DNA of 64,000 nucleotides, taken from Vulcanimicrobiota bacterium. GTDB taxonomy: Bacteria > Vulcanimicrobiota > Vulcanimicrobiia > Eremiobacterales > Eremiobacteraceae. The DNA is taken from NCBI GenBank assembly GCA_963805945.1, contig CAWDVP010000001.1, positions 256,001-320,000 on the forward strand, in the 5' to 3' direction. Within the stretch, counting starts at the first letter, position 1. Every line of letters begins with the position of its first letter. This document shows, piece by piece, positions 54,001 through 57,000 of this stretch. Made by a program: the position numbers.

Positions 54001-57000
54001 CGCAGCCGGGCTTGCGATGCTGCCGTTCATCGCGTTGATCGTCGTGCTGTCGCCGTGGGCCGGCGGACTGGTCGCGCGCGTCGGTCCGAGGCTGCCGCTC
54101 GTCGTCGGACCGGCCCTCGCGGGACTCGGCATCGCGCTCCTCGCGATGCCTGGGATCGGCGGCAGCTACTGGTCGACGTTCTTCCCCGCCATCGTCGTGC
54201 TCGGGTTGGGCATGGCGGTGACCGTCGCACCGCTGACGACCACCGTCCTCGAATCCGTGGACGCCGAGCACGTCGGCATCGCGTCGGCGATCAACAACGC
54301 GGTGTCGCGCGCCGCGGGGCTCTTCGCGATCGCGGTGTTCAGCCTCATCGTGCTGGGCGTCTTCAACGCGCATCTCGATCGCGGACTCGCGGCGATGAAC
54401 GCATCACCTCAGCTGATCGCCGAGATGGCGCCCGAACGCAGCAAGCTCGCTGCGGCGCAGCCACCCGCCAGTATGTCGCCGGCGCAGCACGCCGAGCTGG
54501 TGGACGCGATCGACGTCTCCTATCTTGCCGGCTTCCGCATCGCGATGGTGCTCGGCGCGCTGCTGGCTGTCGCGGGCGCGGGCTGCGCCTTTCTCTCGGT
54601 CCGCGGAGGGAAGGGATCATGAATGGCGACTGGCGCTGGCTCGTCCCTTAGAGTCTTCCGATGACCTGCTTGGCAAGACTCTCTAGTTGCTTTTCTGTCG
54701 CCGAGCTAAGATTTATGTAGAAACGCACTTTGCCTTTCCGCACGTGCAGCGCATGTTCCGGATCAAAATATGCCTCGTCTCCGAGATTGGGGACCGCGGT
54801 CGGCGGGCTATAGAAAGCCTGAAGTCTGGCGAATAGGTCCGTCGCAGCGGACGGCGACGGATCGACGTACACTCGAAACCACAGCTTGCCGGCGGCAGCG
54901 CCCTTGGACTCATAATTGCAATCCGTCCCCGTGTTGGTGTTCGCAAACGGCCGAGGGGCGACGCTCTCCTGCGGGGCGTCATATGCCTGCCCTAAGGTCT
55001 TGGTCACATCGGCCGCCGGCAAGAGCGAGCAGAGATCGGGCGGAAGACCGGTCGCTTGTGCTGGCTGAACCACCAACGCAGTCGCCGCGACGGCTGCAGC
55101 GATCAACAAGAACCTGCGGAACTTTGACATGTCGCGAGCCCTCCCCAACAGCATGGTACTTATTTCGCGTCGTCGTCCGGCTGCATCATGCCGAACTCGT
55201 TTCCTTCGGTGTCTTCGCAATAAGCGAGCCAGCCGACGCCGGGTATCGGATGTTTCGGCGAGGTGAGTTTTCCGCCGGCGGCGGTGACGCTCTTGATCGA
55301 CGCGTCGAGGTCTTCGACGCCGAGCGTGTTGATGGTCGCCTCGGACGGATGCGAACGTTTCAGCAGGCCGCCGTTGATGCCCAGCCCTTCGCCTGTGTCC
55401 ACCATCCAATACTCGACGGGACCGCCCCATTTGTCGATCTTCCAGCCGAAGGCCGTGGAGTAGAATTTGGCAGCCCGTTCCGGGTCATCCGCATGCACTT
55501 CGAAATGAACAACTCGGGGCATGGAAGCCATCCTTTCGGCGTGTTTTCGCCTAGTCGTCTATGAGGCGCGTTTCGTTCTTCGGCCCATTTGGGACGACCT
55601 TGCGGCTCTAGGGCCTTGATTAGCAGGGCCGCCTTTGCTAAGATAGATGAGGTTTTGGTCATTCGGGGGGCAGCTCGCCCGGGCGTCGAAAATAGGAAGC
55701 ATACTCCTCTTCGCGATCGTCAGCAACCGTACACCGAAACGTTCTACTACTGACGCGTGCATTGTCAGAGTCTGACAGTGCACCAAGAGGAGTTTCAAAC
55801 CCAGTGTATACAGATCAACTCATCACCTGCGTTGATTGCGGGAATCAATTCACATTCACCGCAGGCGAACAGGAGTTCTACGACCAGAAGGGCTTCCAAA
55901 ACAAGCCCAGCCGTTGCCCGGATTGCCGGCAGGCCCGCAAGGCCAGCCGCACCGGTGGCGGTGGCGGCGGCGGTAGCCGTGGCGGTTACGGCGGCGGCGG
56001 CGGCGGCGGCCAGCGCGAGATGTTCAAAGCGACATGCTCGAGCTGCGGCGGTGTTGCTGAAGTCCCGTTCCAACCGCGCGGTGACAAACCGGTGTATTGC
56101 CGCGACTGCTTCCAAAAGCAGCGCTCAGCGTACTAAGGCCTAGCCGACAAACGCGATCGAGGCCCGGTGTTCACACCGGGCCTTTATCATTCCCCCGAGC
56201 TTCGCTCGGGCACTACTACTGCGAGCTCGGGCCCGGCGTCGGTTTCGGCGAGAGCAGCAGCGGCGGCCGCGGCACCTGAGTGAAATCGAACTCGGCGATG
56301 AGGTTGCCCAATTGCGGTGCGTTCTCGCGCACGTCCGGGCGCGGATCGGGGCGCCCGTCGGTCCGCGGATCGATGCGTGCCGCATTGAGGAAATCGTCCT
56401 CGATGAACTTGAGGTACGCATCGAAGCTCAACGTCTGATGGTCGATGTAGCCTCGTCTCGCATACGGGCTGATCAACAGTCCGGGCACCCGGAGCCCATA
56501 GCCGTTCTGATCCACCGTCGGCGGCGCCACGTGATCGTAGAAGCCGCCCCAATCATCCCATGTCAGGAAGATCGCGGTGCTGCTCCAGTCAGGGCTCTTC
56601 ATGAGCGCGTTGACGATGTTCGTGACATACGTCTGGCTCGCGCTCACGAGCGCCGGAGGATGATCGCTCACCGGCCCGCTCGGGACCACCCATGAGACGG
56701 CGGGCAGCGTGCCGTTCCGGGCGTCCTTGAAGAGGTCCGCGGTGGTCTTGATGTTGCCGAGTTCGCCGTCTTGGCGCACGGTCACGAACCACGGCAGCGG
56801 ATTCCATATCTGCGGCACCTTGCGGCTCTGCGGCGCGGGCGCGCAGAACATCGCATCGTCCGCGCAATCGGGCTGCGTGCCTTCGGCGAGATAGTACGCC
56901 CAGCTGATGTGATTCTCGTGCAGCAGATACGTGAGGTCCGTCCACGCGTACACGGAAGCGCCGGCCGGCAAACCCCGCTGTGGATTCTGCAGTTCGTTGA

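What a model noticed while it worked through the whole genome (the two positions that open the first line are those of the whole stretch)
55804..56136. No CspA in the class; a CxxC-x17-CxxC double zinc-ribbon protein stands in
No cold-shock-domain gene was found in Vulcanimicrobiia, a class common in polar soils. All genomes tested carry a small double zinc-ribbon protein (g00340, paralog g00978), here with a Gly/Arg linker. Elsewhere this domain pair is fused to cold-shock domains, DEAD-box helicases or an RRM, so it is proposed as an RNA chaperone that replaces CspA.
Evidence so far: PF00313 in 0 of 41 class genomes, 10 of 14 controls. g00340 homologs in 41 of 41, 1-6 matches each, best hits 70-95% identical. 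The family is at 94.5% of the class against 12.6% of bacteria. Of 71 longer homologs, 20 carry PF00313, 5 a DEAD helicase and 1 an RRM. No RRM row in this genome. The gene has a long conserved leader like cspA (next finding). Paper searches: calls 89, 94.
(Added by a program. Inside this text positions count along the whole contig: contig position 256,001 is position 1 of the stretch shown here. "Call 12" and the like, gene names such as g00115 and contig names such as C1 are that model's own, and its searches are not shown. The text may have been shortened before it was handed on; [...] marks where a part breaks off. The agent that wrote the report below was given it as the finding of a first reader that could run no searches.)

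Follow-up and report, generated by a model that had tools for sequence, protein, structure and literature searches.

The report
Zinc-finger RNA protein, partial CspA stand-in
A small, unstudied two-zinc-finger protein found in every tested genome of a soil bacterial class that lacks ordinary cold-shock proteins is probably an RNA-binding helper overlapping with CspA, although binding to RNA and any role in cold are untested.

Summary
The gene is real: 110 aa, PF13451 + Gly-rich linker + PF23477/TIGR04272, transcribed with its leader. PF13451 is in 201 of 201 class genomes (1-8 copies). No stand-alone CspA was found; 5 of 201 carry fused cold-shock domains. New context supports RNA binding: zf next to cspA in 6 of 38 Bacillota genomes with both; true DEAD-box C-terminal fusions; the slot directly after raiA-motif RNA in 36 of 36 published rows and 9 of 79 of my loci; tRNA-like or switch-like leaders. 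Replacement is only partial. In a Bacillota-wide sample 0 of 90 lack both genes, but 38 carry both. In Clostridia 23 of 199 lack both, and 4 of 5 CspA-less carriers tested also have an RRM protein. Best reading: a general RNA-binding/chaperone-like protein overlapping with CspA (0.5). Cold specificity is unsupported. Interest 0.62.

The parts
55616..55644 (+). Putative sigma-70-type promoter: -35-like hexamer 55616-55621, 17-nt spacer, extended -10 55636-55644; start of transcript inferred at about 55650
   Evidence: Read from the sequence; TGn-10 box nearly invariant in 17 aligned family leaders; below the threshold of the simple scan, which found 0 promoters. Inferred.
55651..55803 (+). About 153-nt leader predicted to have two folds: a 5' strand (55651-55659) pairing with 55734-55740 in the nascent RNA (SD free), versus anti-SD 55703-55711 pairing with SD 55785-55793, plus helix 55718-55723/55750-55755 and hairpin 55757-55783 (SD blocked)
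   Evidence: MFE blocks the SD, z -2.5; in 17 leaders the SD-open fold costs 0.9-10.1 kcal/mol at 37 C; anti-SD helix has compensatory changes at two positions; RNA contigs reach 55682; no Rfam match
55804..56136 (+). Gene for the 110-aa double treble-clef zinc-finger protein (pI 8.85)
   Evidence: near-identical RNA contigs in 3 of 4 soil metatranscriptomes laid
55813..55950 (+). Zinc finger 1, PF13451 zf_Tbcl (C9, C12, C38, C41; conserved F16, F18, E22, Q23, F25, R37, R42)
   Evidence: Pfam 77 bits; conservation in 87 sequences; model pLDDT about 90
55951..56013 (+). Disordered Gly-rich linker with one RGG
   Evidence: pLDDT below 50 at residues 54-67; RGG/GGR in only 38 of 120 homolog linkers
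56014..56124 (+). Zinc finger 2, PF23477/TIGR04272 CxxC-x17-CxxC (C78, C81, C99, C102; invariant VPFxP and PVYC)
56161..56182 (+). GC-rich hairpin followed by a short T-rich tail, likely terminator; the gene appears monocistronic
   Evidence: Sequence; orthologs end in hairpin + T runs; not called by the scan; neighbours are divergent (VOC/glyoxalase) and convergent (phosphoesterase)

Best explanation
A small basic RNA-binding protein with two independently folded Cys4 treble-clef fingers on a flexible Gly-rich tether. It acts as a low-specificity RNA chaperone or translation helper whose job overlaps with CspA. In this class, where stand-alone CspA is missing and RRM proteins are rare, it is probably the main small chaperone and has expanded to 1-8 copies; elsewhere it often works beside CspA. 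Its own mRNA is probably controlled at translation by a two-state leader (nascent fold SD-free, final fold SD-blocked), possibly by feedback from the protein. Shown: gene, domains, distribution, transcription, genomic context. Shown in a paper for archaeal finger-2 relatives: zinc binding. Inferred: RNA binding, chaperone activity, leader switching, feedback. Not supported: a cold-specific role.
For: Universal in the class: 201 of 201, 573 matches, with 0 stand-alone CspA. Own genome also lacks RRM, small TRAM and small S1 proteins. Bacillota-wide sample, n=90: both 38, CSD only 28, zf only 24, neither 0, expected 7.5. Chloroflexota: zf in 4 of 16 genomes with canonical CspA, 99 of 114 others (threshold chosen after seeing the scores). 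zf within 530 nt of cspA in 6 of 38 double carriers, plus L125, L233, L234. True zf-zf-CSD fusion. Finger 2 fused at the C-terminal accessory position of 2 of 80 DEAD-box helicases; DEAD-box gene adjacent in 5 of 80 loci. Finger 1 joined to CCCH fingers and RGG tracts (P0075, P0078). Directly downstream of raiA-motif RNA in 9 of 79 loci and in 36 of 36 'zinc-ribbon domain containing' rows of PMC10861870 supplement file 3. Conserved Phe/Tyr/Arg beyond the zinc ligands, median pI 8.6.
Against: No experiment shows RNA binding. Frequent coexistence with CspA: 24 of 50, 68 of 199, and 22 of the 36 raiA rows have a csp gene within ten slots. Clostridia: OR 0.54, P 0.052, 23 of 199 lack both, and the carriers there with 3 or more zf copies are CSD-positive. 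Chloroflexota with any CSD: OR 0.91, P 1. 4 of 5 CspA-less zf carriers tested also have an RRM protein, which could be the real substitute. In the own phylum only one genus shows the mirror pattern; two genomes of genus g85 lack both. Kin are not independent in any table. Cooling does not open the SD in equilibrium folding of most leaders. The fold is not an OB barrel. A SigH-like gene precedes the zf gene in 14 of 80 loci.
Confidence: 0.5

Rival explanations
1. A specific RNA-binding factor of translation or stationary phase (binding raiA-motif RNA, the tRNA elbow or the ribosome). It clusters with csp, hpf and DEAD-box genes because they share a regulon, not because it does CspA's job.
For: 36 of 36 rows at +1 of raiA RNA whatever the flanking genes; a tRNA-like element keeping D and T arms lies just before the gene in about 10 Clostridia loci; HPF follows in L076 and L101; strict surface conservation suits a defined ligand; coexistence with CspA is common.
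Against: No raiA RNA in 5 of 5 class genomes tested; the tRNA-like model hits only its 11 training loci, not the window; the zf gene is near raiA RNA in only 36 rows of a table described as 887 genomes; specificity does not explain 0 of 90 lacking both or the copy expansion.
Confidence: 0.27
2. A protein-binding treble-clef regulator of transcription (anti-sigma like CsfB/Gin, or an RNA-polymerase accessory factor).
For: SigH-like gene directly upstream in 14 of 80 loci; weak fold matches to protein-binding fingers (HPV E7 CR3 Z 3.5, PHD Z 3.1, CsfB Z 2.2); PMC12704099 suggests transcription as a hypothesis (passages).
Against: The sigH link is confined to Clostridia loci and may be inherited synteny; the own genome's SigH-like gene is on another contig; fusions are to RNA domains; Z scores are at background level.
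Confidence: 0.13
3. A zinc store or thiol/redox buffer with no nucleic-acid role.
For: 8 Cys in about 100 aa; zinc binding shown for M. mazei finger-2 proteins (PMC12704099 passages).
Against: Invariant non-ligand residues; RNA-related neighbours and fusions; one Fur-family and one DtxR-family gene among 150 neighbours scanned, no recurrent zinc-uptake context.
Confidence: 0.06

Closest known systems
PF13451 zf_Tbcl + PF23477/TIGR04272 proteins ('zinc-ribbon domain containing protein', 'CxxC-x17-CxxC domain-containing protein')
   Same: Both domains over curated cut-offs; 46-65% identity to homologs in Bacillota and Chloroflexota
   Different: Nothing structural; no function was found in print beyond zinc binding of archaeal single-domain relatives (searches)
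CspA / cold-shock domain proteins (PF00313)
   Same: Small, multi-copy, monocistronic, about 150-nt leader with two predicted folds, as described for E. coli cspA (PMC9947658 passages); fused or adjacent to CSD genes
   Different: No sequence or fold similarity; basic zinc fingers; cold induction and melting untested
Known CspA analogues: archaeal stand-alone TRAM (PMC6705878 passages) and cyanobacterial RRM Rbp proteins (recalled)
   Same: Candidate non-homologous small RNA chaperone in a lineage without Csp; Gly-rich tails as in Rbp (recalled)
   Different: TRAM has an OB-like barrel and was shown to rescue BX04; this family has a zinc-finger fold and no such test
Lin28 and plant cold-shock proteins (CSD + Gly-rich + CCHC knuckles; recalled)
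   Same: CSD joined to paired zinc fingers by Gly-rich linkers, as in the zf-zf-CSD fusions
   Different: Cys4 treble clefs, not CCHC knuckles; fingers N-terminal; here without CSD
CsfB/Gin, HPV E7 CR3, PHD treble-clef fingers
   Same: Weak structural resemblance (Z 2.2-3.5)
   Different: No sequence match; scores at background level

Membership tests
PF13451+PF23477 / TIGR04272 family | HMM scores over curated cut-offs for both domains | tested here: met
   77.2 vs 24 bits; 71.1 vs 27; TIGR04272 71 vs 36
PF13451+PF23477 / TIGR04272 family | Two Cys4 sites | tested here: met
   8 invariant Cys in 87 sequences
PF13451+PF23477 / TIGR04272 family | Zinc bound | not testable with these tools
   Shown only for M. 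mazei finger-2 proteins (PMC12704099)
PF13451+PF23477 / TIGR04272 family | Treble-clef fold | tested here: inconclusive
   Hairpin plus helix per domain; best Z 3.5; no Foldseek hit at E 0.001
Csp family (CspA) | CSD sequence (PF00313) and five-stranded OB barrel | tested here: not met
   No PF00313 match; model has two small zinc domains
CspA-like RNA chaperones (functional class) | Low-specificity ssRNA binding, hairpin melting, antitermination, BX04 rescue | not testable with these tools
   Context evidence only
CspA-like RNA chaperones (functional class) | Cold induction | not testable with these tools
   RNA data are contigs without level or condition
CspA-like RNA chaperones (functional class) | Long leader with SD-open and SD-closed folds | tested here: inconclusive
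   Two folds predicted, anti-SD covariation at two positions, no opening on cooling at equilibrium in most
Non-orthologous displacement of CspA | Mutually exclusive distribution | tested here: not met
   Both genes in 38 of 90, 68 of 199, 51 of 130
Non-orthologous displacement of CspA | At least one of the two always present | tested here: inconclusive
   Neither in 0 of 90 Bacillota, but 23 of 199 Clostridia and 13 of 130 Chloroflexota; draft genomes; RRM confound

The most novel reading that the evidence does not exclude
The double treble-clef family is a third, fold-unrelated class of general RNA chaperone, after CSD and RRM in bacteria. It took over from CspA across most of a soil phylum, controls its own translation through a kinetically trapped leader as cspA does, and in part of Bacillota is the unrecognised protein partner of the raiA-motif RNA.
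Probability: 0.25. Interest if true: 0.85.

Novelty: new variant of a known kind. Interest (0 to 1): 0.62.

Why it matters
The family is in most Bacillota and Chloroflexota sampled (63 of 91, 127 of 201, 104 of 131) and in all of this class, yet no function was found in print. If it is an RNA chaperone it explains how a whole lineage manages without CspA, and mostly without RRM proteins, and adds a zinc-finger fold to bacterial RNA chaperones. The standard BX04/RL211/beacon assays test this directly. It also gives a concrete candidate for the raiA-motif RNA, whose discoverers report no strong protein partner from gene context (PMC10861870 passages), although their own table places this gene name at +1 every time it appears.

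Tried and rejected
Rfam on 55400-56300: two chance hits only. The idea that the class leader is a degenerate raiA RNA: no match over cut-off in 5 genomes, none at the leaders. The tRNA-like model does not hit the window. PDB sequence search: best E 0.016, C2H2 fingers. Foldseek: none; VIA best Z 3.5. PHROGs: none. Atlas: only the same family; nothing usable with it skipped. An apparent mirror pattern in the own phylum (3 of 4 CspA carriers lacking PF23477) shrank to 2 of 4: G454's gene is cut by a contig end and G469 has it. The phylum table printed used wrong counts and is not used. A long-frame proxy for the double-finger form in Clostridia did not sharpen the link (OR 0.53, P 0.051, n=187 after dropping 12 genomes without a listed frame). 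DNA of the DEAD read-through lineage was not obtained: nearest loci (58-61%) have no zf within 1.5 kb, so a true fusion in the P0006 cluster (5 of 5 members 530-536 aa) stays possible. One of six helicase neighbours is RecQ and was dropped. The planned sister-phylum test turned out to sample Bacillota, so the state in Armatimonadota is untested. No row for this family was found by words in the Grad-seq supplement (cut when stored) or the C. acetobutylicum table. The supplement of PMC5737381 could not be read and may mention these leaders. Absence of RNA cover on neighbouring genes was not used. No protein-complex prediction was obtained, so sigma binding is untested.

Full report
OBSERVATION. 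The ORF at 55804-56136 (+) starts with GTG after a strong Shine-Dalgarno sequence and encodes 110 aa: PF13451 zf_Tbcl at 4-49, a Gly-rich linker, and PF23477/TIGR04272 at 71-107. It lies between a divergent glyoxalase gene and a convergent phosphoesterase gene. The window is G000:C1:256001-320000, so the finding's 288000 offset is wrong here, but its window coordinates are right. One paralog lies on C2. The genome is 81.9% complete. Near-identical RNA contigs covering leader and gene occur in 3 of 4 soil metatranscriptomes laid (55731-55942, 55682-55942, 55685-55875); contigs give no level, strand or condition.

THE CLASS. PF13451 is in 201 of 201 class genomes, 1-8 copies, 573 matches, and 0 of 14 controls. 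PF00313 passes its cut-off in 5 of the same 201, against 10 of 14 controls; all five are fusions, three HPF/RaiA-CSD and two NYN-CSD. So no stand-alone CspA was found, but 'no cold-shock domain' is too strong. Outside the class, canonical CspA is in 4 of 69 phylum genomes, so the lack is mostly phylum-wide. Two of those four keep the zf gene and two (one genus, 97-98% complete) lack it. Other candidates are scarce: RRM in 19 of 121 class genomes and 0 of 31 in the own family; S1 and TRAM only inside long proteins in the own genome. The class tallies include genomes flagged unpublished (G014, G036, G048, G129, G159, G176, G182, G190, G192); leader L033 comes from G048, and the Chloroflexota table includes G545.

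PROTEIN. In 87 aligned homologs, besides 8 Cys, E22, Q23, F25, G30, P35, R37, R42, V87, P88, F89, P91, P96, V97, Y98 are invariant. The model has two confident small domains and a disordered linker (pLDDT 81.5, pTM 0.39). There is no solved relative by sequence, no Foldseek hit, and only weak matches to treble-clef fingers (Z up to 3.5). pI is 8.85, median 8.6 in 120 homologs; RGG/GGR occurs in 38 of 120 linkers, so it is not essential.

FUSIONS. I found 80 long homologs: 20 CSD, 5 DEAD, 1 RRM, 2 CCCH. The CSD fusions are real (zf-zf-linker-CSD, many contigs) but join into two groups at 60% identity, so they may be one or two events. The five DEAD 'fusions' carry an internal start before the fingers, and the C-terminal 108 aa of P0005 is called separately in 3 of 7 cluster members; they are best read as neighbouring genes, though the P0006 cluster is uniformly long. 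The RRM case is one short contig with the same look. Against that loss, 2 of 80 DEAD-box loci have a true in-frame finger 2 at the C-terminus (L160, L166), where DeaD-type helicases carry an RNA-binding domain (recalled).

CONTEXT ELSEWHERE. In 80 loci, mostly Bacillota and Chloroflexota, a DEAD-box helicase gene is adjacent in 5, two of them near copies. A raiA-motif RNA lies directly upstream on the same strand in 9 of 79 scanned. [quoted passage not shown] I did not check those accessions by sequence; many rows share one arrangement and are probably one clade; 22 also have a csp gene within ten slots; csp itself was at +1 in 1 of 10 rows viewed of 47. The paper's main text has no 'ribbon' and reports no strong protein partner (passages); a 2026 structure paper says the function is unknown and names KhpA/KhpB (PMC12968392 passages). 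In 14 of 80 loci a SigH-like gene precedes the zf gene, and about 10 Clostridia loci have a tRNA-like element just before the ribosome-binding site. zf and csp lie within 530 nt in 6 of 38 Bacillota genomes having both, four in tandem zf then csp, as also in two Chloroflexota; one Clostridia locus has csp then zf.

DOES IT REPLACE CspA? Three outside samples. Bacillota-wide, n=90 without the centre: both 38, CSD only 28, zf only 24, neither 0 (expected 7.5; Fisher P 2.5e-5). Clostridia, n=199 (centre and unscored G346 left out): 68, 50, 58, 23; OR 0.54, P 0.052. Chloroflexota, n=130: any CSD 51, 14, 52, 13, OR 0.91; with canonical CspA only (threshold set after seeing a gap in scores) zf is in 4 of 16 against 99 of 114, and 5 of those lacking it also lack finger 2 (5 of 12 tested). 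Of 50 zf carriers (50 of 78 available) 24 have a CSD. Kin are not independent and many genomes are drafts. 4 of 5 CspA-less carriers tested have an RRM protein. Mutual exclusion is refuted; a tendency to keep at least one is seen in two samples and is confounded.

LEADER. A conserved extended -10 box implies a leader of about 153 nt. The final fold pairs an anti-SD with the SD (z -2.5). In 17 family leaders this helix shows compensatory changes at two positions beyond the four used as anchor, and a transcript cut after the distal strand mostly folds with the 5' end paired and the anti-SD enclosed. Cooling does not favour the open form at equilibrium in most, so any cold switch would have to be kinetic. 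E. coli cspA mRNA has a cold, translatable fold and a 37 C, occluded fold (PMC9947658 passages). This is an analogy, not a test.

MECHANISM AND RIVALS. Most likely (0.5): two zinc fingers with exposed aromatic and basic residues bind RNA loosely and help refolding or translation, overlapping with CspA and standing as the main small chaperone in this class. Rivals: a specific raiA-RNA/tRNA/ribosome factor (0.27), a protein-binding transcription regulator (0.13), a zinc or redox buffer (0.06).

KNOWN AND NEW. It is a member of a named family and not a Csp-family member. The one paper found on the domain shows zinc binding of two M. mazei proteins and offers transcription as a hypothesis (PMC12704099, abstract and passages). 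Searches for the Pfam/TIGR names (0 papers), 'CxxC-x17-CxxC' (3), Eremiobacter + cold shock (4 listings, none on topic by title), zinc-ribbon domain + cold shock, raiA motif + zinc (0), the RefSeq name (1, unrelated) and treble clef + cold shock domain (0) found no RNA-chaperone claim; the library lacks most subscription papers. The precedent for a non-homologous stand-in is archaeal TRAM, which rescues BX04 (PMC6705878 passages). PMC11706538 was seen as passages only; PMC10117727 as a supplement word search only.

VERDICT. Observation mostly right, interpretation partly right. A widespread unstudied family with converging context evidence for RNA binding and a cheap decisive test. Interest 0.62; new variant of a known kind.

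Noticed in passing
L059, L062, L064, L074, L075, L076, L081, L090, L100 (RNA ends about 30-115 nt before the gene): raiA-motif RNA (RF03072) directly upstream of the zf gene; the same +1 placement in 36 of 36 rows of PMC10861870 supplement file 3. Candidate partner or cis-target of this orphan RNA.
   Followed up: partly
L066, L079, L080, L082, L095, L098, L102, L105, L110, L112 (about 2850-2990), weaker L117: tRNA-like element with conserved D and T arms and a variable anticodon arm just before the zf ribosome-binding site, mostly behind a SigH-like gene; missed by ARAGORN, Rfam tRNA 30-38 bits in two loci. 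Possible tRNA-mimic leader or decaying tRNA.
   Followed up: partly
G000, G006, G016 (own genus): No high-scoring DEAD-box RNA helicase (best PF00270 94-118 bits, in long ORFs) against 162-183 bits in G001 and G063; the genus may lack this cold-acclimation factor too.
   Followed up: partly
L001, L004, L005; L002, L003: The only CSDs in the class are HPF/RaiA-CSD and NYN-CSD fusions.
   Followed up: yes
L009, L017, L018, L031 upstream regions: Family f2 orthologs have a different leader in which the 5' end and a distal strand are complementary; not modelled.
   Followed up: no
L007 1351-1650 (-), G000:C2 near 462400-462700: The paralog has a short linker, its own conserved promoter-like boxes and a leader of about 70 nt.
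   Followed up: partly
P0075, P0078: Finger 1 alone joined to CCCH fingers and RGG tracts in proteins that look eukaryotic.
   Followed up: no
L108 (G243); L050, L062, L064: Record titles disagree with content: a record titled Armatimonadota groups with Bacillota; records titled Bacteroidaceae/Alloprevotella carry Bacillota-like zf loci, two with raiA RNA. Possible mislabelling or contamination.
   Followed up: no
L138 (G056): Ortholog with a frameshift in the Gly linker, probably an assembly error in a 70%-complete genome.
   Followed up: no
window 54648-55190 (-): About 180-aa ORF with a signal-peptide-like start and no Pfam match.
   Followed up: no
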